Below, one piece after another: positions 1 to 13,528 of a stretch of DNA of 13,528 nucleotides. Both the position numbers and the translations under genes were made by a program. Position 1 is the first letter of the stretch. Every line of letters begins with the position of its first letter. Location: positions 1 through 13,528 of the forward strand of contig JAZDNO010000013.1 in assembly GCA_043799545.1 (NCBI GenBank). Reading direction: 5' to 3'. A model generated the notes under the pieces. The model had not been told where the DNA came from. It searched no databases and was given only the letters and a program-made list of their open reading frames with translations. Source of the DNA: Methanobacteriota archaeon. Lineage in GTDB: Archaea; Thermoplasmatota; Thermoplasmata; SG8-5; DAIRED01.

Positions 1-238
1 ACTTGGCCTTGTAGTCCTTGACCCCACGGAGGATTGCCCTTTCCATGATTATCTTGAAGAATGTGTAAATAACTGTGAAAGCTACCATGGTCTGGAGCGT
101 CTTCCCCATGAACGGGCCGAGGTTGACCGAGAGCACCGTCAAATCCGGGTATTTTCGTTCAACGTAAAACAAGGCGATTATTGCGACAATCAACCCTGCC
201 ACTATCGAGATGCGCTCGCTGATTTCCGCATACTTCAT
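1..238 (-). CDS. 5' part of a membrane protein, probably a second MscS-family mechanosensitive channel (runs off the window edge)
   Basis: Not in the ORF track; translated by hand from ATG at 238: MKYAEISERISIVAGLIVAIIALFYVERKYPDLTVLSVNLGPFMGKTLQTMVAFTVIYTFFKIIMERAILRGVKDYKAK, open to base 1. Two hydrophobic segments, GGAG upstream, ATGA overlap with the stop of the upstream MscS gene. The MscS assignment is by resemblance only. Confidence 0.6.
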   Translation of the reverse strand, partial: MKYAEISERISIVAGLIVAIIALFYVERKYPDLTVLSVNLGPFMGKTLQTMVAFTVIYTFFKIIMERAILRGVKDYKAK

Positions 239-2812: not shown

Positions 2813-2907
2813 GACAGAAAGTGCCTGTGAGGTAATAAAATATAGCTTGCGCATACTGGAAAACTATTCATACCTCTTTCTGTTTAGGCGAAGCCACGAA
2901 ACTGTAG

Positions 2908-2916
2908 TTATTAAAT
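2908..2916 (+). promoter_or_regulatory. TATA-like box upstream of the degenerate tRNA-Asn copy
   Basis: TTATTAAAT 21-29 nt upstream of 2937. A related box (ATAAAAT, 3046-3052) sits at the same spacing before the intact tRNA. Confidence 0.5.
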
Positions 2917-2936
2917 CCCTTTACACGAATGAATCT

Positions 2937-3000
2937 GCCGTCGTAGCTCAGCTGGTGCATCGGCCGAGCTGCGCAATTGGTGTACGTCCATGCCTCGGCG
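2937..3000 (+). pseudogene. Degenerate tRNA-Asn-like copy (pseudo-tRNA or tRNA-derived ncRNA)
   Basis: 2936-2957 is identical to 3072-3093 (22 nt). The 3' end TCCATGCCTCGGCG matches the tRNA end TCCTTGCGACGGCG at 11/14. The middle is 9 nt shorter, with no GTT anticodon loop and no T-loop. Confidence 0.65.
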
Positions 3001-3072
3001 AACCGCAAGGCATTTGGAGAGGTTCGCCTTCGGGAGTTCGTTCGGATAAAATCCTTTTGTTCGCAAACCCTT

Positions 3073-3145
3073 GCCGTCGTAGCTCAGCTGGTGGAGCGGC
3101 TGACTGTTAATCAGCAGGTCCAAGGTTCAAATCCTTGCGACGGCG
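3073..3145 (+). tRNA. tRNA-Asn (GTT)
   Basis: Cloverleaf: GCCGTCG/CGACGGC acceptor, GCTC/GAGC D-stem, GCTGA-CTGTTAA-TCAGC anticodon arm, CAAGG-TTCAAAT-CCTTG T-arm, G discriminator; no encoded CCA. Confidence 0.97.
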
Positions 3146-3147
3146 CT

Positions 3148-3194
3148 ATTTTTCATATGAAAATATTTGCTGGCGGGATCCGCCAGCCAAAAAT
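3148..3194. terminator. Probable bidirectional terminator region
   Basis: T-run right after tRNA-Asn, palindrome TTTTCATATGAAAA (3150-3163) and perfect 8-bp hairpin GCTGGCGG-GAT-CCGCCAGC (3169-3187), between the tRNA (+) and a convergent small ORF (-). Confidence 0.55.
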
Positions 3195-3379
3195 CAACCC
3201 CACCCTTCGAGCCGACCCTGGCAGTCATGACAGAAAGCCCTTGAGGAAGGCATCGGATTGCCACAGCGTGGACAGGGCCGAACGTTCTCCGCACCACCCT
3301 CAAAATCCTTGGGTGGAACTCGCTCGAGGTTGCCACGCCTGGCACGCGTTCGGATACAATTCGTGGTTTCCCGGCTCAT
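3194..3379 (-). CDS. Small putative zinc-ribbon protein (61 aa)
   Basis: MSRETTNC...CPRCGNPMPSSRAFCHDC; CxxC-x10-CxxC spacing; ends just before the hairpin at 3169-3187. The start is uncertain. Confidence 0.4.
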   Translation of the reverse strand: MSRETTNCIRTRARRGNLERVPPKDFEGGAENVRPCPRCGNPMPSSRAFCHDCQGRLEGWG

Positions 3380-3571
3380 AAGGTATCCCCGATTATTATG
3401 GCATTGCCCGAGCCCCTTGAAATAACCTGTCATTCATCCGTTTTCCATACAGCGCCATGCCAGTGGTCCAAAGATTGTTTCAGATGGCTGTAAAACAGCT
3501 ATAGATGATAATTAACAAAATAGGTTTATAATCATGTAATGACAATTCGCTATCGTAGAAAGAAGTGACAA

Positions 3572-3886
3572 ATGCTCCCCTCCTCTGCGATAAATTTAAC
3601 AATCGGTTCATGCGAAAACTTAATTCTTCTTATATACATTGGGTTACACGATGACTCTGGCATCGGAATGTACGAACTCGAAAAAAGCGGCAACGGATTC
3701 TCGCGTTGGTCACTCTACAAGAGCCGCGACGCGCTTCTGGCCCTCGCTCTCATCGAACGCGCGCCGGCGACGCATCTGGCAAGGAAGCCTTACCGTCTGA
3801 CACAGCGCGGGAAGGAAGTCGTTATCCTTTTCGATGATGCATTCACTCGTTTGAATTCAATCCTGGAAAGCGGCCATTGTAAATAG
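3572..3886 (+). CDS. Winged-helix DNA-binding protein
   Basis: Helix-turn-helix-like segment followed by the wing motif KPYRLTQRGKEVV; GAAGTGA SD-like site and TTTATAA box in the upstream AT-rich stretch. Confidence 0.65.
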   Translation: MLPSSAINLTIGSCENLILLIYIGLHDDSGIGMYELEKSGNGFSRWSLYKSRDALLALALIERAPATHLARKPYRLTQRGKEVVILFDDAFTRLNSILESGHCK

Positions 3887-3942
3887 CCTTTCTGGAGCAA
3901 CCGACCTTAGACGCCAACTCGATCGCGCAGAACCCTATTGGC

Positions 3943-4224
3943 TCACCGCTTGCCAGTAACCTTTATCACGTGGTAACCGAACTGGGTCTTCACGGGCGCG
4001 GACAGCTGGCCGACCTCCAGGTTGAACGCCGCGTCCTCGAAGGCCTTCACCATCCGGTTGCGGCCGAAGTACCCCAGGTCCCCGCCGCCCTTGCCGGAGG
4101 GGCAGGTCGACACCTTCTTTGCAATCTCCTCGAAGCTGGCCCCGCCCTTGACCTTCTGTATGATGTCCAGGGCTTCCTTCTCCGTCTTCACCAGTATGTG
4201 GCTCGCGCAGACTTCCTTTGGCAT
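3943..4224 (-). CDS. ppiC: Parvulin-type peptidyl-prolyl cis-trans isomerase (stand-alone, Par10-like)
   Basis: ASHILVK, FEEIAKKVSTCPSGKGGGDLGYF, MVKAFEDAAF, PVKTQFGYHVI; TTTTATA box at 4255-4261. Confidence 0.96.
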   Translation of the reverse strand: MPKEVCASHILVKTEKEALDIIQKVKGGASFEEIAKKVSTCPSGKGGGDLGYFGRNRMVKAFEDAAFNLEVGQLSAPVKTQFGYHVIKVTGKR

Positions 4225-4279
4225 GATAGCACCGGCAAGCCATTTGAAAACAGGTATAAAATTGTGCGCACTGCCCGAT

Positions 4280-4525
4280 TCACTCTTCCAGCTTATCGTC
4301 GCCGAATTGGCGGGCTACGCTCCGTATCATCGCGCCCTCCGCCAGGAAGGCCATGCCCGCTATCACGACGAAAACGTTGAGCCAGGTGATTATCGTCACT
4401 GCCATGACGAGCCAGCGCGGGTCGTCGGGGGACATGTCGCCCAAAGTCGCCACTCCGAGCGCAAACATGAGGAAACCGACGAGCATCATCATCACGCCGG
4501 TGCGGACCTTTACCGTCCTGACCAT
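4280..4525 (-). CDS. Small two-TM membrane protein
   Basis: Two hydrophobic segments joined by DMSPDDPRW; fills the gap between ppiC and the crotonase; ATG 4525 preferred over TTG 4534. Confidence 0.6.
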   Translation of the reverse strand: MVRTVKVRTGVMMMLVGFLMFALGVATLGDMSPDDPRWLVMAVTIITWLNVFVVIAGMAFLAEGAMIRSVARQFGDDKLEE

Positions 4526-4616
4526 GCATGACAATATGTATCACGGAGGATAAATTACTTTCGTCTCATGGTTGCGGCGCCATGCCAGAGCCTTGGTGCG
4601 CCTATGAAATCTTTCC

Positions 4617-5396
4617 TCAACGGCCCTTGAACGACGGCTTCCTCTTCTCCGCGAACGCGCCGGTCCCCTCCCGAAAATCTTCGGTCGCACCGGAAATCGA
4701 GATGAAATGCCTCTCCAGTGCCAGCTGCTCCTCCAAGGTGTTGTCTTTGGCGTGGTTGAGCAGCGCCTTCGTCCTGGTGATTGCAAGCAATGCGTTCACG
4801 GACAGCTCGGAGGCTTTCTTCCTGGCAAAGGGCATCAGGTCATCGGGTGGCACGACCCAGTTGGCGATGCCCCATTCCAAAGCCTCGGATGCGCCCAGCC
4901 GTTTGCCCGCCAGAAGCATCTCGGAAGCGCGCGCCCTCCCCACGTGCTCGACCAGCAGTTCCGTGCCGCAGCCGGGAGCCAGGCCTATTCCGGCGAACCA
5001 CATGCTCAACCGCGCCTCCGTAGACAACACTTTCAAATCGCAGGCCAGCACGAGGCTGCATCCCGCCCCTGTGGCGACGCCGTTCACGGCGGCGAGCACG
5101 AGCGCCGGCGAGCGCCTCACGGCGAGAACGACATCGTGAATAGGTTTCACCAGCTCCATCAGGAAACGCTCCGGATTCTTCGCCTCCCCCATCGCCTTCA
5201 CGTCACCGCCCGAGCAGAAGGCCTTGCCGCTGCCAGTGATTATTATGACCTTCGCATTCTGGCGCTCCGCGTCCTTCAGCGCGACGAAGAGCGCCGCTGC
5301 CGTCTCGGCGTCGAGGCAGTTCATCCTCTCTGGCCGCGTCAATGTCACGGCCGCCGTCCCGTCATCGACTTTCAGGGAAACCGCTTCGCCTGGCAT
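4617..5396 (-). CDS. Enoyl-CoA hydratase/isomerase (crotonase) family protein, PaaG-like
   Basis: TLTRPERMNCL, TGSGKAFCSGGDV, AAVNGVATGAGCSLVLACD, ASEALEWGIAN, DFREGTGAFAEKRKPSFKGR; GGTGA SD 4 nt before ATG 5396. Confidence 0.92.
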   Translation of the reverse strand: MPGEAVSLKVDDGTAAVTLTRPERMNCLDAETAAALFVALKDAERQNAKVIIITGSGKAFCSGGDVKAMGEAKNPERFLMELVKPIHDVVLAVRRSPALVLAAVNGVATGAGCSLVLACDLKVLSTEARLSMWFAGIGLAPGCGTELLVEHVGRARASEMLLAGKRLGASEALEWGIANWVVPPDDLMPFARKKASELSVNALLAITRTKALLNHAKDNTLEEQLALERHFISISGATEDFREGTGAFAEKRKPSFKGR

Positions 5397-5499
5397 GGTT
5401 TCACCGACCCCCATCGCGCACGCGGCTTATATTGGCTTCGCAGGGCCGCACAAAGCGCTTACCAGAAACGTAATATGCGCTGACCCCCATTCAGTGCCG

Positions 5500-6447
5500 A
5501 TGAGCCCCTTGAAGAGGTACGCTCCGCTCGTGGCCGTGGTCGTAGCCGCGTTCCTTGCCGGCAACCTCGTTTACAACGTGGAGAACCTCGATTGGGGGGA
5601 CGAGCAGGACCCGCCGGAGGGGTACTCCCAGCCCGTCGAGGGGCAGAGCGTCTCCAATTCCAATTCCATAGCCAACTCGCTGCGGTACGTCTTCGCAGGG
5701 ACGATAATCCTGCTGATGTGCGGCGCGATAGTCATGTCCGCAGGCAAGGCCGCGAAGGACCCGAAGGGGTTCCTGAAATCTATGGGGGCGTACCTCCTGG
5801 CCGGAGGGCTCATCATCGGGTTGTTCGGAATCATGGCCATGAGCGCCAACCCCCACGGCTCCGTCGGAAGCGTAATACCGTTCATAGGCAGCCAGACATC
5901 TCAGGGCACCGGAAGCACGGGGGACGAGCCGGGCGCGCCGACGCCGCTTGCATCTATCCTGGTTGTCGTAGCGCTGGCGTTCTTCGTCCTCATGGCCGTC
6001 GCGGCGTTCATATTCCTCGGCAAGGCCAGGCGCCCGATTTCTCTCGGCGGCGACAAGGACGATAAGAAGCGGGAGGTCGCGGCGGCGCTCGGGCGCGCGC
6101 GAGACGAGCTGGCAGTCGGCGGGGATTATCGCATCGCGGTGCTGAGGTGCTACAGGGACATGGTCAAGCTCCTGTCTGGGAAGGGCGTGAAGGACAGGGA
6201 CAGCATGACCGCCAGGGAGTTCGAGGCGCTGGCAAGCGCGGAGCTTGAGCTGGGAGACGAGCTTGGGGAGCTGACCGCGCTATTCGAGGAGGCAAGGTAC
6301 AGCCAGCATGACGTGGCAGAAACGCAGAGGGAGCGGGCAGCTCGCGCCTTCGACATGGTCCGAACGACCCTCCTGAAGACAGGGGATGGGCATATGGACG
6401 CTGTTGCATCAGTAAATGCGCTGGGGGTGATTGGCAATGGCAAATGA
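5500..6447 (+). CDS. DUF4129-domain membrane protein
   Basis: Several TM helices and a C-terminal domain with YRDMVKLL..MTAREF..LTALFEEARYS. The upstream part of the called ORF (5224-5499) is antisense to the crotonase gene and its promoter, so start at ATG 5500. Confidence 0.85.
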   Translation: MSPLKRYAPLVAVVVAAFLAGNLVYNVENLDWGDEQDPPEGYSQPVEGQSVSNSNSIANSLRYVFAGTIILLMCGAIVMSAGKAAKDPKGFLKSMGAYLLAGGLIIGLFGIMAMSANPHGSVGSVIPFIGSQTSQGTGSTGDEPGAPTPLASILVVVALAFFVLMAVAAFIFLGKARRPISLGGDKDDKKREVAAALGRARDELAVGGDYRIAVLRCYRDMVKLLSGKGVKDRDSMTAREFEALASAELELGDELGELTALFEEARYSQHDVAETQRERAARAFDMVRTTLLKTGDGHMDAVASVNALGVIGNGK

Positions 6448-7120
6448 CGATGAAATCGTGGCTGAGAACGTTAAAGGAGTTGCGCACAATGCGCAATACT
6501 TATCGCCCACGGATTCAAGCCTCGCGCAGGGCGACGATAGTGACTGGCGGGAGTACGTCGGCGAGACCCTGCTGGTCATATCGTTCCTTGGCGTGGCGTT
6601 CGCGATGCTGGCAATCCCCTTTGTGGTCTACGCCACGTACAGCGGTTCGTTCCGCTGGATAATCACCCTCGGGCTCGTCACCGTGGCAGCGGTCGCGGCC
6701 TTGTGGTTCATCTATCCCCTCGGGGCGAGGCCCAGGCATGAGCCCGAGCTAGAGTCGTTCGGAAAGGACCGGGGCAACTACGAGCCCTTGATGGAGATGG
6801 CCGATCGCGCGAGCCAGGGTTTTTCCTACAGCCAGAAGGCGCTAAACGAGCGCATGGCGGAGGCGTTCCTGGAGAAGCTCAGGATACGCAAGGGCCTGGA
6901 CCCGGGCGAGGTTTTCAGGCTATCGGAGAATGAGAAGGCGCTGGCGGTGGCGTGCGGGGATTCGGAGCTGGCCGCTTTCGTCGTGAGAAGCAAGGCCGCG
7001 ATAACGGAGCAGGCTGAGAGGAAGAGGTTCACCTCAAGGCGCCTGATGGCCAGCCGCGGCGCGAAGTTCAATGTCGAAGCGGCGAGAATCATCGAGCGAA
7101 TAGAAGCATGGGAGGGTTGA
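6437..7120 (+). CDS. Hypothetical two-TM membrane protein of the MoxR operon
   Basis: GGGGGTGA SD then ATG 6437; overlaps the previous stop; two TM helices followed by a soluble helical domain. Confidence 0.8.
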   Translation: MANDDEIVAENVKGVAHNAQYLSPTDSSLAQGDDSDWREYVGETLLVISFLGVAFAMLAIPFVVYATYSGSFRWIITLGLVTVAAVAALWFIYPLGARPRHEPELESFGKDRGNYEPLMEMADRASQGFSYSQKALNERMAEAFLEKLRIRKGLDPGEVFRLSENEKALAVACGDSELAAFVVRSKAAITEQAERKRFTSRRLMASRGAKFNVEAARIIERIEAWEG

Positions 7121-7121
7121 A

Positions 7122-8072
7122 ATGAAAGCGGACGAGGTTAAAAACGTGTGCGGCCAGGTGGCGGTCGAGGTGGAGAAGGCGATAATAGGAAAGAGAAGCG
7201 TCGTGGAACGGGTCATAGCCGCGATGCTGTGCGACGGGCACGTCCTTTTCGAGGATTTCCCGGGGCTGGCGAAGACCATGCTGGCAAAGAGCACCGCCGC
7301 CGCGACGGGGTGCGTGTTCAAGCGCGTCCAGTTCACGTCGGACCTCATGCCCGCCGACATAACTGGCACGTACGTCCTGAACCCGAAGTCCGGCAGCTTC
7401 GAGCTGCGGCGGGGGCCCGTATTCACGAACGTCCTGCTGGCGGACGAGATAAACCGCGCGCCGCCCAAGACGCAGTCCGCGCTGCTGGAGGCCATGCAGG
7501 AGCGCCAGGTTACTCTTGAAGGCGAGTCGCAGACGCTCCAGAGGCCGTTCGTCGTGCTGGCGACCCAGAACCCCATCGAGTACGAGGGCACGTACCCCCT
7601 GCCAGAAGCGCAGATAGACCGCTTCCTGATGAAGCTCAGCGTCGGCTACCCGGAGAAGGCTGACGAGATAGAAATCCTGAAGCGCAGGAAGGCCAGGGGC
7701 AAGGATGAGCCGGACATCGCGATGGTGGCCAGCGCTCAGAAGCTCCTGGAGATGCAGGCCTTCGTCGAGACCGTCCACATAGACCCGTCGATAATGGAGT
7801 ACTGCGCCGAGATAACGAGGAAGACCAGGGGCCACGGCCAGGTAGAGATTGGAGCCAGCCCCAGAGGCTCGCTCGCGCTCATGCGGCTGTCGTGCGCGAT
7901 GGCGGCGATGGCGGGCCGGGACTACGTTCTCCCAGACGATGTGAAATCGATCGCGGTGGAGGCGCTGGCCCACAGGATAATCCTCAAGCCGGACCCGTGG
8001 ATAAAGGGAATCAAGGCCGAGGTAGTGGTCCAGAAAGTGCTGGAGGAAGTACCGGTGCCGAAGGTGAAGTGA
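7122..8072 (+). CDS. moxR: MoxR-family AAA+ ATPase
   Basis: GHVLFEDFPGLAKT (Walker A variant), RVQFTSDLMPADITG, VLLADEINRAPPKTQSALLEAM, ATQNPIEYEGTYPLPEAQIDRF, ASPRGS; GGGAGG SD. Confidence 0.97.
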   Translation: MKADEVKNVCGQVAVEVEKAIIGKRSVVERVIAAMLCDGHVLFEDFPGLAKTMLAKSTAAATGCVFKRVQFTSDLMPADITGTYVLNPKSGSFELRRGPVFTNVLLADEINRAPPKTQSALLEAMQERQVTLEGESQTLQRPFVVLATQNPIEYEGTYPLPEAQIDRFLMKLSVGYPEKADEIEILKRRKARGKDEPDIAMVASAQKLLEMQAFVETVHIDPSIMEYCAEITRKTRGHGQVEIGASPRGSLALMRLSCAMAAMAGRDYVLPDDVKSIAVEALAHRIILKPDPWIKGIKAEVVVQKVLEEVPVPKVK

Positions 8073-9334
8073 GCTTGCTCACCCGCAAGATAGCCATGCT
8101 GGGAGCGCTGGCAATCGCGCTCGTCGTCGCCGGGATGTACCTGCAGAGGGGGACGCTGATAGTCCTCTCGCTCGTGCCTTCGGTTTACCTCGCCCTCCTG
8201 GCCGCGTTCCCCAGGCCCGTGTCACTGGACGTCGACGCATCCAGGTCGATCTCCGAGACTCGCGTCGCCTCGGGGCAGAGGCTCACGGTGACGCTCAGGC
8301 TGGCGAACCGCTCGGAGGCCGCCCAGATTGTCGAGGTCGAGGACGCAGTGCCGGATTGCCTCCGGATCGTCTCGGGGAGCCCTTCGTGCCTCGTCAATCT
8401 GGAACCTGGCGAGGTGCGCACTTGCGAGTACGCCGTCGAGGCGACGAAGAGGGGGCGCCACGTACTAGGCCCGCTGAGGCTCAGGTGCGCCGACCCGTCG
8501 GGGGTTAGGGACCTGGAGCGAACGCTGGCAATCATGACGACCGTGACCGCGATAGCTGAGGTCGAGCCGGAGCGCGAGATACGCATCGCCCCGAACCGCA
8601 CGAGAAATTGGGTCGGCCAGATTGTCTCACGCAGGATAGGCATCGGAAGCGAGACCTGGGGGCTCCGCGAGTACGCGCAGGGGGACGAGATGCGCCATAT
8701 CAACTGGAAGGCCACCGCGCGGACCGGACGTTACATCACAAACGAGTACGAAGCGGAGCGAAGCGGCGACGTGACGATAATACTGGACGCGCGGGAAGGC
8801 TCCGGAAAATCGGACTCGCGCAACTCGCCCATCGAGTCGTCGATCAGGGCGGTCTCGACCATCGGGGCGCACGTGCTGATGGCCAAGAACCGCGTCGGCC
8901 TCATAGTCTTCCGCGACTGCCTGGACACCGTGAATCCCGCATTCGGCAAGCGCCAGTTCTACAGGATTTCCGAGAAGCTCCTGGATGTGCGCTCGGCTGG
9001 CACGATGCCCTTCGAGAACGTCTCGTGGCTCGTCACGAAGTACTTCCCCGTCGAGTCGCTGGTCGTCGTCGTGAGCCCGCTGGCAGACGAGGGAATCGTC
9101 AGGGCCATCGCGGACTTCTGCGCGCGCGGCTACGACGTCGTCGTCGTCTCCCCTTCGCCGCTGGTGACTGCCAAATCGCACGGCCTGGACGGCATCGCTT
9201 TCGGCGTGGCCTCCGTAGAGCGCTCGAACATCCTCAGGGAGCTGGCCAGGTACGCCCGCGTCGTCGATTGGAACCCCGACGAACCGCTTGCCACATCGCT
9301 GCGCACGGTCTCGCCCAGGAGGGGCTCCGCATGA
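8069..9334 (+). CDS. DUF58 (vWA-like) protein
   Basis: LREYAQGDEMRHINWKATARTG, VTIILDAR, NRVGLIVF; GTG 8069 overlaps the moxR stop (GTGA) and follows AGGTGA. Confidence 0.92.
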   Translation: MSLLTRKIAMLGALAIALVVAGMYLQRGTLIVLSLVPSVYLALLAAFPRPVSLDVDASRSISETRVASGQRLTVTLRLANRSEAAQIVEVEDAVPDCLRIVSGSPSCLVNLEPGEVRTCEYAVEATKRGRHVLGPLRLRCADPSGVRDLERTLAIMTTVTAIAEVEPEREIRIAPNRTRNWVGQIVSRRIGIGSETWGLREYAQGDEMRHINWKATARTGRYITNEYEAERSGDVTIILDAREGSGKSDSRNSPIESSIRAVSTIGAHVLMAKNRVGLIVFRDCLDTVNPAFGKRQFYRISEKLLDVRSAGTMPFENVSWLVTKYFPVESLVVVVSPLADEGIVRAIADFCARGYDVVVVSPSPLVTAKSHGLDGIAFGVASVERSNILRELARYARVVDWNPDEPLATSLRTVSPRRGSA

Positions 9335-9888
9335 GGGGAACGACCGCTGCAGCGTGGGGATTGCTGTCCGCTCTAGCGGCCTGGGATATCGCAAGTGCGC
9401 TCGGCGGTCCCATCTCAGATTCCATCGCGCTCTGCGCCCTCGCCTTCGTTGCGGCTGCGCCAGCGCTCGTGCGTTGGGAGGTGCGCAACGCCTTGACGTT
9501 GCGCCTCCGCAACTTCCTTGGAAGGGTGGCGCCATATGCATCGGCGGGCCTGCTGGGCGCATCGCACTTTGTCCTGAAGGACCCATCGGGGAGCTCGCTC
9601 ATGTTCTCCGTCATCTACATTGTCGCACTGCTGGCTTTCGCGGAGCTGGCGAGGTGGGCCCGGTACTCCTCGGGGTTCGGAGAGAACGTGGCATCGGGCG
9701 TAGATTCCGCCTGGTCCAGGACGTTCGGTTCGAGGTTCGTCCCGCTGCTGGCGCTCAGCGTCGGGCTGGCAATGGCTGCGGTCGTTCTGGCCGTCGGCCT
9801 GGACGGCACATGGACGGCACTGGCGCTCGCGGTCGGGCTCATAGTGACAATGGCGCTGACTGCGAGGACGGCGGCCCGGGTCGCCTAA
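9331..9888 (+). CDS. Multi-TM hypothetical membrane protein, last gene of the MoxR operon
   Basis: ATGA overlap with the DUF58 stop, GGAGGGG SD, about six hydrophobic segments. Confidence 0.75.
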   Translation: MRGTTAAAWGLLSALAAWDIASALGGPISDSIALCALAFVAAAPALVRWEVRNALTLRLRNFLGRVAPYASAGLLGASHFVLKDPSGSSLMFSVIYIVALLAFAELARWARYSSGFGENVASGVDSAWSRTFGSRFVPLLALSVGLAMAAVVLAVGLDGTWTALALAVGLIVTMALTARTAARVA

Positions 9889-10571
9889 TCCTTCTGCGAT
9901 GGCTTCTGCGCCGGCTCGGGTTCTTCCACGACCTCGGACTCCTCGGCCTTTGAGAGGTATTTGGCTGGCACGTCGGATATCAGAAACACCGTCGTCCCGG
10001 CCTTCTGGATTGTCATCCCGTCCGCGACGGCCTGCTTAGAGTCTATCGCGAGAATCGCCGGGTCTTCGACCCTGACCCTTCCCGCGACGACCGCCGCCTC
10101 GTAGGTCTTGCTGAGGTGGACCATCTTTCTGTCCGCTGGCTTCAGGCCGGTCTCGAGCAGAAGCTCCATCTCCTCCTGGGTGGTCGGATAGTAGAGCACG
10201 TCCGGTATGTCCCTCGTTGGCAGGTCCAGCTTCACCTCAATCGAGTGTGCGTAGGTGGCGCGTATCTTCCCCTCGCGGAACTGGTACCTGCCCTTCGGGT
10301 CCGTCTCGATGACGGCCATGATGTGGTGGGTCTTGAGCCATCGGAACATTCTCTGCCTCGCCTGGACCGCAGTGACGAACTGTTCCAGGTCTATCCAGCC
10401 CTGTTCGTCCATTGTCAGGCCGTACCTCTCGGGGAAGTGCCTGAGCACGCCGGCCATGGTCCTTCCTATCCTGTCCAGCTCCTCCTCGTTCATGAGGAAG
10501 CGTCCCTCGTCCCCGCATACCGGGCAGTCCTCAGCCCTGAAATATCCGTGCGTCCTGCACTCCTTCAGCAT
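9885..10571 (-). CDS. kptA: RNA 2'-phosphotransferase (KptA/Tpt1) with N-terminal zinc ribbon
   Basis: LRHFPERYGL, DPKGRY, IRATYAHSI, LYYPT, RKMVHLS; N-terminal CRTH..CPVC; GGGGGA SD before ATG 10571. Confidence 0.95.
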   Translation of the reverse strand: MLKECRTHGYFRAEDCPVCGDEGRFLMNEEELDRIGRTMAGVLRHFPERYGLTMDEQGWIDLEQFVTAVQARQRMFRWLKTHHIMAVIETDPKGRYQFREGKIRATYAHSIEVKLDLPTRDIPDVLYYPTTQEEMELLLETGLKPADRKMVHLSKTYEAAVVAGRVRVEDPAILAIDSKQAVADGMTIQKAGTTVFLISDVPAKYLSKAEESEVVEEPEPAQKPSQKD

Positions 10572-10646
10572 AAAACATCCCCCTAGCTTCGGGGTGGGAT
10601 GGGGGAGATGGTAAAAAAGCTTTGGCATACGCGATGAGCCGAAACG

Positions 10647-10654
10647 TATATATA
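10647..10654 (+). promoter_or_regulatory. TATA box between divergent kptA and the CxxC-x17-CxxC gene
   Basis: TATATATA in an otherwise GC-rich intergenic region. Confidence 0.55.
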
Positions 10655-10732
10655 CCAGGGACGTACTGACATCCCTTAATACGTGCATCCCAGGGTGCAA
10701 ATCCGAGGAGGGCGCGTATAGAAAGGTATAGA

Positions 10733-10903
10733 ATGAGCGACAGAAAGTATGACCGCGGCTTTGACCGGGGTCCAAGAGAAATGCACACTGTGAAGTGCTC
10801 CGACTGCGGACAAGAGGACCAGGTCCCCTTTAAGCCGAAGGAAGGCAGGCCAGTGTACTGCAAGCAGTGCTTCGAGAAGCACCGCCCACCGCGAAGATAC
10901 TGA
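10733..10903 (+). CDS. CxxC-x17-CxxC zinc-ribbon miniprotein (56 aa; missed by the ORF track)
   Basis: Hand translation: MSDRKYDRGFDRGPREMHTVKCSDCGQEDQVPFKPKEGRPVYCKQCFEKHRPPRRY*. Exact family spacing with VPFKP..GRPVYC. Confidence 0.93.
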   Translation: MSDRKYDRGFDRGPREMHTVKCSDCGQEDQVPFKPKEGRPVYCKQCFEKHRPPRRY

Positions 10904-11044
10904 GCCAAGCCTCAAGCTAGGTAGAGTATCGAAAAACCTTTTCAGATTTACCTTTCCTCGATTTTCAGGGATTCTCTGGGTCATTATGGCATCGTTTTTT
11001 ACCACGGCGAGATTCAGCATCTAAAATTCGCTCACCGTGGAGTC

Positions 11045-11107
11045 GGACTAGCTTCCCGCTGAGTGAATGACAAAAACCGCTAGTCCTTTCCGGGTGGGAG
11101 CCCATCC
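11045..11107. repeat. Hairpin plus inverted copy of the tRNA-Val 3' end
   Basis: GGACTAGC/GCTAGTCC stem (11045-52/11079-86), then TCCGGGTGGG-ag-CCCATCC (11089-11107), the reverse complement of 11131-11147 with a 2-nt insertion. Confidence 0.8.
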
Positions 11108-11133
11108 TCAATACTGGCGAATAAAGAATCGGA

Positions 11134-11207
11134 TGGGCCCACCCGGATTCGAACCGGGGACCTCCGCCTTGTAAAGGCGACGTCATAACCGACTAGACCA
11201 TAGGCCC
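11134..11207 (-). tRNA. tRNA-Val (TAC)
   Basis: GGGCCTA/TGGGCCC acceptor, TCGCC-TTTACAA-GGCGG anticodon arm, CCCGG-TTCGAAT-CCGGG T-arm; TTAAAATA box at 11232-11239. Confidence 0.97.
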
Positions 11208-11254
11208 GCGCGGCGAGGATTGGCCTGAACGTATTTTAACGTTGGCAACGGAAA

Positions 11255-11482
11255 TCAGTGGGTGGAGTACAGCGTGAACCGAACGTTGGTGCCCCGCAAC
11301 GCATCCTGAAGCTTGTCCAGCATCCTGCGGAACGATTCGCCAACGCCCTCGCCCGGACCCGCCTCCAGCACGAAATCGTATTCCCCGATTACCGGCTTCC
11401 AGTCCAGCTCCTCGAGGCGCTTGATGACCTCCGAGGGCTTCGCCCCCTCGCTGCTGAACTCAAGTTTCAGGTAGGTCTTCAC
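11255..11482 (-). CDS. Small conserved-looking hypothetical protein (75 aa)
   Basis: GGTGA SD then GTG: KTYLKLEFSSEGAKPSEVIKRLEELDWKPVIGEYDFV...; from memory it resembles small proteins of Thermoplasmata (not verified). The longer 134-aa call runs through structured non-coding DNA. Confidence 0.75.
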   Translation of the reverse strand: MKTYLKLEFSSEGAKPSEVIKRLEELDWKPVIGEYDFVLEAGPGEGVGESFRRMLDKLQDALRGTNVRFTLYSTH

Positions 11483-11551
11483 GGATTCACCGGGGGTGGA
11501 TTGGCGTGAATGGTAAAAATCTATCGTTTGTGAGGAACATAATGAAACCAT

Positions 11552-11653
11552 TGGCCCGAGAATGTGACGGTAATTGAACTCGGGCCAGACACGGCCTAGC
11601 TCGCAAATTCCATATTGAACACATACCGCTAGGCCTATCCCGACACCCTTTGC
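11552..11653. repeat. Two hairpins plus inverted copy of the tRNA-Gly T-arm and 3' end
   Basis: TGGCCCGAG/CTCGGGCCA (11552-60/11579-87), GGCCTAGC/GCTAGGCC (11593-600/11628-35), then ATCCCGACACCC (11637-48), the reverse complement of 11673-84. Confidence 0.8.
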
Positions 11654-11669
11654 TTTCATGAAAAACCTG

Positions 11670-11743
11670 TGCGGGTGTCGGGATTTGAACCCGAGTTATC
11701 AGCTTGGCAAGCTGAAGTGATAGCCAGACTACACTACACCCGC
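11670..11743 (-). tRNA. tRNA-Gly (GCC)
   Basis: GCGGGTG/CACCCGC acceptor, TCAGC-TTGCCAA-GCTGA anticodon arm, TCGGG-TTCAAAT-CCCGA T-arm, A discriminator, followed by a T-run. Confidence 0.97.
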
Positions 11744-11771
11744 GCTCTGCATATCAAATGTTTTTATCCGC

Positions 11772-11827
11772 GCGGGTTCCCTCGGAAAAGGCTCCCAGAT
11801 TGGCTTCCTTTTCCTCGGTACACCCGC
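11772..11827 (-). ncRNA. Candidate 56-nt structured RNA, unit 1
   Basis: GCGGGT-GTA-CCGAGG-AAAAG-[17 nt]-CTTTT-CCGAGG-GA-ACCCGC; rod hairpin with a tandem G.A pair; covaries with unit 2. Transcription is inferred. Confidence 0.7.
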
Positions 11828-11854
11828 ATTTTGCTTATTAATGCTTTTTGTCAT

Positions 11855-11910
11855 GCGGGTTCTCTCGGGAAAGGTTCGCACATCAGCGGTCTTTCCCTCG
11901 ATACACCCGC
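11855..11910 (-). ncRNA. Candidate 56-nt structured RNA, unit 2
   Basis: GCGGGT-GTA-TCGAGG-GAAAG-[17 nt]-CTTTC-CCGAGA-GA-ACCCGC; TTTAATA box 28-34 nt upstream (11938-11944). Confidence 0.7.
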
Positions 11911-11951
11911 CCTGGCGTTCGGGGAATTATTGCCTCGGTATTAAACGTTTC

Positions 11952-12238: not shown

Positions 12239-13528
12239 TTACACCTCCACCAGTACCGTCAATCCTCGAATCGAAACCGAATTCACCATCTTGCCATGAG
12301 ACTTCAGCCCCTTCTCGATTTTCACGTCGCCCTTGGAAATTTCAGCCTGCGTGCCGTCGTCGAACGTGAGCAGTAGGTGTCCAGATTCCAGGGCCTTGGC
12401 CGCGTCCTCGACGGGCATGCCTGCCAATGCATCGTAGACTTCTTTGGCTTTTCCCCTGAATTTCGGACCGAGCGTCGCCTTGTTGGGCTTCACAGCCGTC
12501 GGTACCTCTTCCACAACCGAATCCTGGGTTATCACCAGGCGATTTATCTTCAGCGTCCCAACGATGTCGTCCTCGCAGCCCAGAAGGGCCGATGAGCCCT
12601 CGCCGGAAATCTCGATGGCGGCCAGCTCCGCGTTGAGGGCCATCCGGTTGTCCGACTTCCACGATCTCACGCCCGCGATGACGTCCCGCAGCAGATCGCC
12701 GCGCTCCTCCTCCTCGTCGTCGAAGAGCGCTGGCTCTGGCCACGGCGCGGTCGTGATGCTGAGCCACGGCTCAGTCTGGATGAAGTGCGAGTGGTAAATC
12801 TCCTCGGCGATGTGGGGCATTATCGGGGCGAGCATCCTCAGGACGCCCAGCGAAACCGTGTAGAGCGCGTACTGGACCCCCTTGTCACCCGCAGCCATCC
12901 GGTGCTTCGCCATCTCGAGGTAATGGTCCGCGAACTCGTGCCACAGGAACTGCTCGACTGCGCGGAGCGCCGCGTCGAACTGGCAGTCCTCCATCGCCTT
13001 CGTCGCCGCCTCCACGGTCCGGCTGTACTTGGAGAGAATCCATAGGTCTGCCGGCTTGAGGTCTTCCGCCGTCGCCCCCGGCTTACCCTTCACGCTTATC
13101 CCGACGAACTTGCAAACGTTCCAGAGCTTGTTGCATAGCTTCTGGCCGTGGACGACCTCCTTCACCTGGAAGGCCTGATCGACGCCGAGGGTGCACGTGG
13201 CGGCGAAGTAGCGCATCGCGTCCGCCCCGTACTGCTCCAGCAGCGGGATGGGGTCTATGATGTTGCCCAGCGAGGTGTGCATCGGCGTGCCGTCCGGAGC
13301 CATGATGAAACCGGAAATCATCGTCTCGCCCCAAGGCCTTTTTCCGGTTATCTGGAGGCATCGGAGTATCGTGTAGAACGTCCAGGTGCGGATGATCTCG
13401 TGGCTCTGGGGACGGATGTCCTCCTCGCCAGCGAAGCCGCCGGGGACGTCGCGCTGCTCGGCGGTGCAGCCGGGGGGTGTCAGTCATCGGGTCGATGGGG
13501 AGCTGGTCGATCGATGGCAGGATCGGGT
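12239..13528 (-). CDS. valS: Valyl-tRNA synthetase, 3' part (archaeal type); frameshifted near 13478 and apparently missing an internal segment
   Basis: The frame extends upstream of the called ATG through RPQSHEIIRTWTFYTILR; GNIIDP..YGADAMR, KLCNKLWNV, FLWHEFADHYLE and the anticodon-binding tail are present. LPIDPMTD lies in a different frame upstream of 13478. Confidence 0.9.

What the first reader, a model, noticed from the sequence alone, without database searches (positions are those of the whole stretch)
2937..11910. Window-wide pattern: all three tRNA genes carry structured 'satellite' copies of themselves
Asn has an upstream direct remodelled copy, Val a downstream inverted 3'-end copy, and Gly both upstream acceptor-mimic hairpins and a downstream inverted copy. 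No integrase, transposase or reverse transcriptase is visible in the window, so ordinary att-site duplication does not explain it. Inference: a lineage-specific class of tRNA-derived ncRNAs or a trans-acting process that generates them. kptA lies close to the Val/Gly cluster, but it is common in archaea, so the link is unproven.
Basis: inference. Interest (0 to 1): 0.7.

Follow-up and report, generated by a model that had tools for sequence, protein, structure and literature searches.

The report
End-echo insertion modules flanking stable-RNA genes
In this uncultured Thermoplasmata archaeon most tRNA genes, and also the SRP RNA and RNase P RNA genes, are flanked by small gene-less hairpin modules carrying sense and antisense copies of the gene's own ends. 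They behave like miniature insertion elements that keep the host gene intact, a kind of element not described in the literature I could search.

Summary
All three tRNAs in the window carry the described copies, and so do 33 of 42 tRNAs genome-wide, plus the SRP RNA gene and an RNase P RNA 3' fragment.

Downstream modules hold an antisense copy of the gene's 3' end, one or two conserved hairpins, and often a sense copy. In the main scaffold family, 13 of 19 base pairs covary. Upstream modules start with an exact copy of tRNA nt 1-21.

Comparison with a same-genus genome shows the modules are indels. The tRNA-Asn "remodelled copy" is the displaced original 5' end and promoter. A 136-bp segment sits at D-loop position 21/22, flanked by 21-nt repeats, and brings its own TATA box and a replacement 5' end.

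- Scaffold families are lineage-specific and are swapped between congeners.
- Modules stack in tandem.
- Their helices show little G·U bias.
- Real integrase-bearing elements exist elsewhere and split tRNAs from their modules.

Best reading (about 0.5): cargo-less, non-autonomous insertion modules specialised on stable-RNA gene ends. An RNA function is not excluded. kptA shows no link.

The scan has seen this design before, in this genome and in CPR bacteria.

The parts
2838..2936 (+). Original promoter region of tRNA-Asn, with a TATA-like AAATCC motif about 21-26 nt before 2937
   Evidence: Aligns at about 90% with the sequence directly upstream of the module-free tRNA-Asn of same-genus G001.
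2937..2957 (+). S': the displaced original first 21 nt of tRNA-Asn (direct repeat 1)
   Evidence: Exact copy of 3073-3093. It is contiguous with the ancestral promoter.
2958..3072 (+). U1 insert body. It holds hairpin A (2958-2992), hairpin B (2997-3028), a conserved TTCGGGAG motif, and its own TATA-like GGATAAAATCC (3044-3054) with a leader.
   Evidence: Absent from G001. The same scaffold sits before tRNA-Thr(CGU/UGU) of G000, Thr(UGU) of G001 and Asn of G014. 9 of 27 predicted pairs are compensatory among 5 copies.
3073..3146 (+). tRNA-Asn(GUU). Its nt 1-21 form direct repeat 2.
11134..11207 (-). tRNA-Val(UAC)
11090..11107 (-). AS arm of the Val module. It is antisense to the tRNA's T-stem 3' strand, acceptor 3' strand, discriminator and 3 trailer nt, with a 2-nt bulge.
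   Evidence: (I8) and 83: 17-bp hairpin, z -4.9.
11002..11086 (-). F1 scaffold of the Val module: hairpin 1 (11045-11086) and hairpin 2 (11002-11040)
   Evidence: Model R1 hit at 10999-11091, 81.6 bits. Fold. G001 has a different module family at this tRNA.
11669..11743 (-). tRNA-Gly(GCC)
11637..11648 (-). AS arm of the Gly module: a perfect 12-nt antisense copy of tRNA nt ~59-70
   Evidence: I3; z -5.7. Unchanged in G001.
11553..11640 (-). F1 scaffold of the Gly module: a 3-bp outer helix with hairpin 1 (11587-11640), then hairpin 2 (11553-11586)
   Evidence: R1 hit at 11548-11640, 82.1 bits. Both hairpins carry compensatory changes against G001.
11769..11827 (-). Upstream hairpin unit 1 (F2 family). 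It starts with tRNA-Gly nt 1-9 and ends in the complementary ACCCGC.
   Evidence: z -4.8. Conserved in G001 with a compensatory stem change.
11852..11912 (-). Upstream hairpin unit 2 (F2 family), a tandem copy preceded by a copy of the promoter-like flank
   Evidence: D1 at 75%, D2 at 74%; z -5.6. Absent from G001, which has one unit.

Best explanation
The "satellites" are small (about 60-140 bp), gene-less, hairpin-structured insertion modules. They occupy the two ends of stable-RNA genes: tRNAs, SRP RNA and RNase P RNA.

Shown:
- A module lies either inside the gene's 5' part (upstream type) or just behind the gene (downstream type).
- Direct copies of the gene's terminal 7-29 nt flank or close the module, so an intact gene remains.
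- The Asn upstream module carries a TATA-like motif at the same spacing as the native promoter, and downstream modules begin with a T-tract.
- Downstream modules also carry an antisense copy of the 3' end next to one or two conserved hairpins.
- Modules differ between congeneric genomes by presence, family and copy number, and new units sit nearest the tRNA.

Inferred:
- The TATA-like motif and the T-tract act as the gene's replacement promoter and terminator.
- The modules are non-autonomous. Either a recombinase or transposase acting in trans moves or duplicates them, or recombination through the conserved gene ends does so.
- The arms stay identical to the local gene through duplication at insertion or through repeat- and palindrome-templated correction.
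- They are probably co-transcribed with the gene. Any benefit to the host is secondary.
For: 1. Filled versus empty site. G001's tRNA-Asn lacks U1, and its promoter aligns with the DNA upstream of the distal copy in G000. The 136 bp between the 21-nt repeats is therefore an indel at D-loop position 21/22. U1 is also present at tRNA-Asn of G014, in another family, but was not seen in the six congeners of G014 examined.
2. Turnover between G000 and G001:
   - Thr(CGU), Gly(CCC), Val(UAC) and Met carry different module families.
   - Gln(CUG) and Phe(GAA) have an extra unit inserted next to the tRNA.
   - Gly(GCC) has 2 upstream units against 1.
3. Tandem arrays of 2-4 units occur at Ile, Cys, the RNase P fragment and G005 Phe.
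4. Scaffold family F1 is structured: 97% of cells paired, 13 of 19 pairs changed on both sides, 0 of 500 shuffles as good. It was found only in two families of the order.
5. Of 20 F1 hits in G000, 19 lie directly behind, and co-oriented with, a tRNA gene, the SRP RNA gene, or a displaced tRNA or RNase P RNA 3' end.
6. F1 helices show 19 G·U against 12 A·C pairs. tRNA stems of the same genome show 27 against 4. This fits a DNA-level or two-strand constraint.
7. The sense copies carry the local allele at Gln(CUG), Met and Phe.
8. Modules share the niche used by real mobile elements. At tRNA-Val(GAC) an integrase-bearing element separates the tRNA from its old 3' end plus module, now on contig C28.
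Against: - No enzyme is identified.
- The modules encode nothing.
- The three tRNA-adjacent integrase loci and the Y1-transposase genes have flanks unrelated to the module scaffolds.
- More than 30 different target ends would need either many specificities or a target-copying mechanism that is not known.
- In the Gln(CUG) pair the old T-tract seems to stay with the tRNA. This fits neither a simple target-site duplication nor a simple att crossover.
- An indel flanked by repeats can also be a precise deletion, so its polarity is not shown.
- The antisense arm is kept complementary across scaffold families, and once through a compensatory change in trailer sequence (G000 contig C28 versus G001 Val(GAC)). 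F1 is also strictly co-oriented with its gene. Both would equally fit a selected RNA structure.
Confidence: 0.5

Rival explanations
1. Host-selected structured RNAs. The modules are leaders and trailers co-transcribed with the stable RNA. Their arms rebuild or engage the parent's terminal helix (an acceptor/T minihelix mimic, or a hairpin with the 3' end and U-tract). This helix would direct end processing, termination or quality control, or release small hairpin RNAs, much as tRNA-like punctuation does.
For: - Near-universal presence: 33 of 42 tRNAs plus the SRP RNA gene and an RNase P RNA 3' fragment.
- Fixed position and orientation.
- Strong covariation in the hairpins.
- The antisense arm always matches its own gene in G001, G002 and G005, even where the scaffold differs.
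- A compensatory change in the trailer helix.
- A TATA-like motif at the same spacing before the upstream units.
- The 210-nt S'-U1-tRNA transcript is predicted to fold with S' as the acceptor strand, z -3.3.
Against: - Scaffolds are swapped or missing at orthologous tRNAs of congeners.
- Copy number varies.
- The F2 unit occurs in both orientations relative to its tRNA.
- There is little G·U bias.
- A T-tract separates the gene from the module.
- Pairing of the antisense arm with the tRNA would compete with the cloverleaf.
- No expression data exist.
- A similar "controls folding" reading for bacterial look-alikes was later marked as fallen in this scan (not checked here).
Confidence: 0.27
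2. Decayed scars (attL/attR remnants) of ordinary integrase-bearing viruses or plasmids that once sat in these genes and lost their interior.
For: - The direct copies end exactly at the gene's end, as in att identity blocks.
- Integrases lie next to tRNA-Glu(UUC), Trp/Arg(UCU) and Val(GAC).
- Known archaeal tRNA fragments come from such integrations (PMC9897764).
Against: - Inserts have a uniform small size.
- Their hairpins are conserved and covary.
- The same scaffold sits at unrelated genes.
- An antisense arm is present.
- Tandem arrays occur.
- Modules occur at the SRP RNA and RNase P RNA genes.
- The ends of the real integrated elements show none of these features.
- In Thermococcaceae the fragments lie 9-23 kb from the gene.
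Confidence: 0.1
3. Programmable, guide-bearing elements. The antisense arm would act as a guide that selects the insertion site, like IS110 bridge RNAs or the left-end guide next to the hairpin foot in IS200/IS605.
For: - The arm sits immediately 5' of a conserved hairpin and matches a site 17-45 nt upstream.
- Y1 transposase genes are present, mostly one or two copies per genome, in most genomes of the order.
Against: - No IS110 transposase was found and TnpB gave only a sub-threshold match.
- The Y1 gene flanks do not resemble the modules.
- G022 has modules but no Y1 match.
- The equivalent reading for CPR-bacterial look-alikes was later marked as fallen in this scan (e1-720555; not re-tested here).
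Confidence: 0.08

Closest known systems
attL/attR duplications of tRNA-targeting integrative elements, and their integrase-less derivatives (CIMEs)
   Same: A direct repeat of a tRNA segment flanks an insert. The identity block runs to the gene's end, so the gene is restored. Tandem accretion occurs. The elements share sites with real integrase elements.
   Different: - The insert is only about 60-140 bp with no gene.
- It holds conserved hairpins that covary.
- It carries an antisense copy.
- More than 30 different genes are targeted, including SRP RNA and RNase P RNA.
- A 5'-end version brings its own promoter.
- No cognate autonomous element was found.
E. coli tyrT 178-bp repeats / RtT RNA (Rfam RF00391). 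The lead comes from earlier scan note e1-5201711; the details are from my own knowledge.
   Same: Tandem non-coding units lie behind a tRNA gene, and each ends in a copy of the tRNA's 3' end. Their origin and function are unexplained.
   Different: RF00391 gave no match here. The case here is archaeal, genome-wide, has an antisense arm, and includes 5'-end and non-tRNA versions.
REP/BIME elements with RAYT, and IS200/IS605-derived PATE/MITE elements
   Same: Short, extragenic, hairpin-forming repeat families that are lineage-specific, stack in arrays, and have mainly Watson-Crick helices. A Y1 transposase is present, mostly in one or two copies.
   Different: The arms are specific to the neighbouring gene, and the location is restricted to stable-RNA gene ends. 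The Y1 genes are not flanked by the modules.
Non-canonical archaeal tRNA introns and split or permuted tRNA genes
   Same: U1 interrupts the gene at D-loop position 21/22. G001's tRNA-Val has a 44-nt intron at the same position. The long transcript can fold with the distal exon-like copy as the acceptor strand.
   Different: The interrupted gene is also complete downstream. The insert carries a promoter and an exon-1 duplicate. No bulge-helix-bulge motif was shown.

Membership tests
Classical tRNA-targeting integrative element (att duplication) | Direct repeat of a gene segment on both sides of the insert, reaching the gene's end | tested here: met
   Asn has 21-22-nt repeats at 2937 and 3073. 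Downstream sense copies end at the discriminator.
Classical tRNA-targeting integrative element (att duplication) | Integrase gene and kb-scale cargo between the repeats | tested here: not met
   Inserts are 60-140 bp. The ORFs listed over them overlap the tRNA genes and hairpins and are taken as chance frames. The genome's integrases lie at other tRNAs.
CIME-like non-autonomous integrative element | A related autonomous element with the same ends or att site in the same lineage | tested here: not met
   Flanks of the integrase-adjacent tRNAs Glu(UUC) and Val(GAC), and the attR on contig C28, lack the scaffolds. Only this genome and G001 were examined.
RtT RNA (RF00391) | Match to the Rfam covariance model | tested here: not met
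   No hit in gathering or E-value mode.
REP/RAYT system | Y1 (RAYT) gene flanked by copies of the repeat | tested here: not met
   Y1 genes are present, but their flanks match no module.
IS110-type bridge-RNA element | DEDD (IS110) transposase in the genome | tested here: not met
   PF01548 was not found in a genome estimated 94% complete.
tRNA gene or tRNA pseudogene | Cloverleaf recognised by ARAGORN or Rfam RF00005 | tested here: not met
   Only the three real tRNAs are found in the window.
Archaeal tRNA intron (BHB-dependent) | Bulge-helix-bulge motif at both junctions | not tested
   Only an MFE fold was made. No BHB search tool was on hand.
Structured RNA family (as opposed to a DNA palindrome) | G·U tolerated much more than A·C in helices | tested here: inconclusive
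   F1 helices have 19 G·U against 12 A·C. tRNA stems have 27 against 4.

The most novel reading that the evidence does not exclude
A previously undescribed class of cargo-less "end-echo" elements that colonise both ends of any stable-RNA gene (tRNA, SRP RNA, RNase P RNA). An unknown copying or recombination mechanism would rebuild the gene's terminus in sense and antisense. The elements supply a replacement promoter or terminator. Their long transcripts might be resolved like intron-containing or split pre-tRNAs. The same design in CPR bacteria (earlier scan notes) would make this a cross-domain phenomenon.
Probability: 0.3. Interest if true: 0.9.

Novelty: new variant of a known kind. Interest (0 to 1): 0.72.

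Why it matters
If these are mobile modules, they are a minimal form of gene-restoring insertion. They show that stable-RNA gene ends, 5' as well as 3', can be colonised on a genome-wide scale without any encoded enzyme. That points to an unrecognised mobilising activity or recombination route.

If they are RNAs, almost every tRNA, the SRP RNA and the RNase P RNA of a whole archaeal order would have a dedicated antisense-bearing partner.

There are practical consequences too:
- The copies confuse tRNA annotation and genomic-island detection.
- They break MAG assemblies.
- They offer natural markers of lineage history.

Tried and rejected
- Rfam in gathering and E-value mode, on the window and on 23 other module loci, gave only tRNA, SRP RNA and RNase P RNA. 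No family covers the modules.
- ARAGORN with introns finds no hidden tRNA in the Asn copy.
- C/D box, H/ACA, K-turn and sarcin-ricin-like readings of the junctions GA(N)AGG and CCG(A/U)AUC were considered by eye only. They were dropped because the box or bulge positions do not fit (inference).
- RT (PF00078) and IS110 (PF01548) were not found. TnpB (PF07282) gave only a sub-threshold hit.
- RAYT/REP idea: Y1 genes exist, mostly in one or two copies, across the order. Their flanks are not module-like, and one module-bearing genome lacks a Y1 match.
- 5S rRNA has no module.
- The RNase P RNA gene itself was not found in G000. Only a 3' fragment with three modules was seen.
- kptA: no association beyond adjacency in this window.
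- Literature searches found no description. PMC9897764 attributes archaeal tRNA fragments to kb-scale integrations or CRISPR only.
- Strand test by G·U against A·C was inconclusive.
Full report
**What is in the window**

The window is a whole 13.5-kb contig (C26) of a 2.06-Mb, 31-contig assembly. Earlier notes of this scan call the organism an uncultured Thermoplasmata archaeon (I did not verify the taxon). ARAGORN and Rfam agree on three tRNA genes: Asn(GUU) 3073-3146(+), Val(UAC) 11134-11207(-) and Gly(GCC) 11669-11743(-).

- The 32-nt stretch 2936-2967 repeats at 3072-3103, and its first 21-22 nt are exact.
- A perfect 12-nt inverted copy of the tRNA-Gly 3' end lies 24 nt behind that gene (I3).
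- A gapped inverted copy of the tRNA-Val 3' end lies behind that gene (I8). It folds with the tRNA end and trailer into a 17-bp hairpin, z -4.9.
- Two ~60-nt hairpins lie in front of tRNA-Gly. Each begins with the tRNA's first nine bases behind a copy of its AT-rich upstream flank (D1/D2). Their z-scores are -4.8 and -5.6.

**The pattern is genome-wide**

I aligned each of 46 ARAGORN tRNAs to its own ±300-nt flanks and used the flanks of other tRNAs as the null. Many loci score far above the 99th percentile. Four doubtful predictions were then removed, leaving 42 tRNAs for exact-match counting.

| Feature | Own flank | Mismatched tRNA/flank pairs |
|---|---|---|
| Inverted copy of the 3' end, ≥9 nt, within +12..+90 | 22 of 42 | 7.4% |
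| Direct copy of the 3' end, ≥11 nt | 18 of 42 | 2.0% |
| Direct copy of nt 1-21..24 upstream, ≥11 nt | 7 of 42 | 0.9% |
| At least one of these | 33 of 42 | n/a |

**Anatomy of the modules**

Downstream modules have this order:
1. The gene, then a T-tract.
2. An antisense arm (AS, 10-16 nt) complementary to the gene's 3' region.
3. A junction GA(N)AGG, hairpin 1, and a second junction CCG(A/U)AUC.
4. Then one of two endings:
   - Type a: a sense copy (S) of the gene's 3' end that pairs with AS.
   - Type b: a second hairpin. Both window modules are type b.

Scaffolds are shared by unrelated tRNAs. For example, Gly(CCC) and Leu(UAA) share 83% identity over 90 nt.

I aligned 11 copies of the main scaffold (F1) and counted pairs for a structure I specified. 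97% of cells pair, 13 of 19 pairs change on both sides, and no shuffle or slid register comes close. The covariance model R1 built from this alignment finds 20 copies in the genome. Of these, 19 lie directly behind, and co-oriented with, a tRNA gene, the SRP RNA gene, or a displaced tRNA or RNase P RNA 3' end.

Upstream modules mirror this design. They hold a sense copy of tRNA nt 1-21..24, then hairpins, and in some families an antisense arm. The Asn module belongs to family U1, which also sits before the Thr tRNAs. Among five U1 copies, 9 of 27 predicted pairs are compensatory.

**The modules are not tRNA-specific**

- One F1 copy follows the SRP RNA gene (C20:16590-16900). Its AS (GGCCGCTGAA) is the complement of the SRP RNA's 3' end.
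- In same-genus G001 an F1 copy lies behind the RNase P RNA gene.
- In G000, a 3' fragment of RNase P RNA on contig C12 is followed by three tandem type-a units. Their arms are AGGTGAAGG and ACCTTCACCTGGCA.
- 5S rRNA has no module.

The register of AS varies between loci. It can cover the T-loop and T-stem, the T-stem and acceptor strand, or the acceptor strand, discriminator and trailer. It can also cover only the last bases plus the U-tract. In the last class there is a compensatory change between species. G000 contig C28 has CCATTTTTTC paired with GAAAAAATGG, while G001 has CCACTTTTTCC paired with GGAAAAAGTGG.

**The modules are indels**

This is the key result for the window. G001's tRNA-Asn has no U1. 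Its upstream region aligns at about 90% with window ~2838-2936, the DNA in front of the distal copy. So 2937-2957 plus its promoter is the displaced original 5' end. The 136 bp up to 3072 is an insertion/deletion polymorphism at D-loop position 21/22, flanked by 21-nt repeats. It contains hairpins A and B, a new TATA-like motif (3044-3054), and a replacement copy of nt 1-21.

U1 also sits at tRNA-Asn of G014, in a different family, where the copy follows that genome's own tRNA sequence. It was not seen in the six congeners of G014 examined.

Other G000/G001 pairs show swaps and tRNA-proximal additions.

| tRNA | G000 | G001 |
|---|---|---|
| Thr(CGU) | family F3 | family F1 |
| Gly(CCC) | F1 | F7 |
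| Val(UAC), in the window | F1 | F6 |
| Gln(CUG) | extra unit inserted next to the tRNA | none |
| Phe(GAA) | none | extra unit inserted next to the tRNA |
| Gly(GCC), upstream units | two | one |

The Gly(GCC) downstream module is conserved, with compensatory changes in both hairpins.

The sense copies carry the local allele.

**Relation to real mobile elements**

The genome has four tyrosine recombinases. Three lie next to tRNA-Glu(UUC), Trp/Arg(UCU) and Val(GAC), and those tRNAs lack adjacent modules.

Contig C28 holds the displaced 3' end of tRNA-Val(GAC), followed by an F1 module that G001 still has directly behind the intact gene. Ordinary integrases therefore use the same sites and split genes from pre-existing modules. 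The ends of those elements carry no module scaffold.

No RT or IS110 transposase was found, and TnpB gave only a sub-threshold match. Y1 transposase genes occur, mostly one or two per genome, in most genomes of the order, but they are not flanked by modules.

**RNA or DNA?**

F1 helices are almost purely Watson-Crick: 878 Watson-Crick pairs, 19 G·U and 12 A·C. tRNA stems of the same genome show 27 G·U and 4 A·C. F2 hairpins occur in both orientations relative to their tRNA. Both points lean towards a DNA-level or two-strand constraint.

Compensatory changes in palindromes can also arise by templated correction (established knowledge; inference here). On the other side stand strict co-orientation, fixed spacing, and maintenance of AS complementarity across scaffold families. 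The 210-nt S'-U1-tRNA transcript is also predicted to fold with the distal copy as the acceptor strand, z -3.3. These keep an RNA role open.

**Distribution**

- F1 was found only in two families of the order.
- Other families and classes use different scaffolds with the same layout.
- A phylum sample of 35 tRNAs from 27 genomes was near background, with a few clear cases such as G037 Lys and G032 Val. That sample was small and dominated by tRNA-Lys and tRNA-Thr.

**Comparison with what is known**

Published archaeal tRNA fragments are ascribed to kb-scale integrations or to CRISPR (PMC9897764). I found no description of such modules.

This scan has already noted the phenomenon elsewhere in this genome, and a similar layout in CPR bacteria. 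For the bacterial cases a guide-type reading and a folding-control reading were later marked as fallen, and E. coli tyrT/RtT was proposed as the nearest known case. I treated these notes as leads and lowered the guide reading accordingly.

**Verdict**

The best-supported reading is a set of cargo-less, non-autonomous insertion modules specialised on stable-RNA gene ends (about 0.5). A selected RNA function is the main rival (about 0.27).

Noticed in passing
G000 contig C12:~98040-98330 (locus L087): Only a ~25-60-nt 3' fragment of RNase P RNA is present. AT-rich, foreign-looking DNA precedes it and three tandem modules follow it. The full RNase P RNA gene was not found in this assembly, although G001 and 18 other relatives have it.
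   Followed up: partly
G000 contig C28:~16010-16146 (locus L043): An orphan 3' end of tRNA-Val(GAC) with its F1 module. It is probably the attR of an integrase-bearing element whose attL is tRNA-Val(GAC) on contig C25 (integrase at C25:2690-3220). This would link the two contigs.
   Followed up: partly
L014/L071 (G001 contig C24), tRNA-Val(UAC): The G001 ortholog of the window's tRNA-Val has a 44-nt insertion after nt 21 (D-loop) that G000 lacks. It looks like a non-canonical intron, and it sits at the same position as the U1 junction.
   Followed up: no
window 11255-~11490 (-): A small ORF between tRNA-Gly and tRNA-Val is well conserved in G001. It has no Pfam match and may be co-transcribed with the tRNAs.
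   Followed up: no
window 12239-13321 (-) and 13083-13526 (-): The 360-aa ORF holds only the C-terminal part of a class I aminoacyl-tRNA synthetase (end of tRNA-synt_1 plus Anticodon_1). The N-terminal part must lie beyond the contig end, or the gene is split or frameshifted near 13083-13321.
   Followed up: no
G000 C10:219117-219668 and G001 tRNA-Glu(UUC) locus: The integrase-side flank behind tRNA-Glu(UUC) is conserved between G000 and G001. This tyrosine recombinase may therefore be long-resident rather than a recent arrival.
   Followed up: no
G000 C12:58590-58937, C25:29957-30301; relatives: A Y1 (IS200-type) transposase gene without TnpB occurs, mostly in one or two copies and with similar scores, in 15 of the 21 relatives searched in the order. 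It was matched in only 2 of the 9 other families sampled in the class. The C25 copy lies beside a partial duplicate of tRNA-Leu(GAG).
   Followed up: partly
window 3147-3190 (+): Behind tRNA-Asn the U-tract is part of a small palindrome (TTTTCATATGAAAA). A GC hairpin follows (GCTGGCGG..CCGCCAGC), and there is no end-echo module.
   Followed up: no
window 5224-9334 (+): A gene run encoding a DUF4129 protein, a MoxR-type AAA ATPase and a DUF58 protein. It is unrelated to the finding.
   Followed up: no
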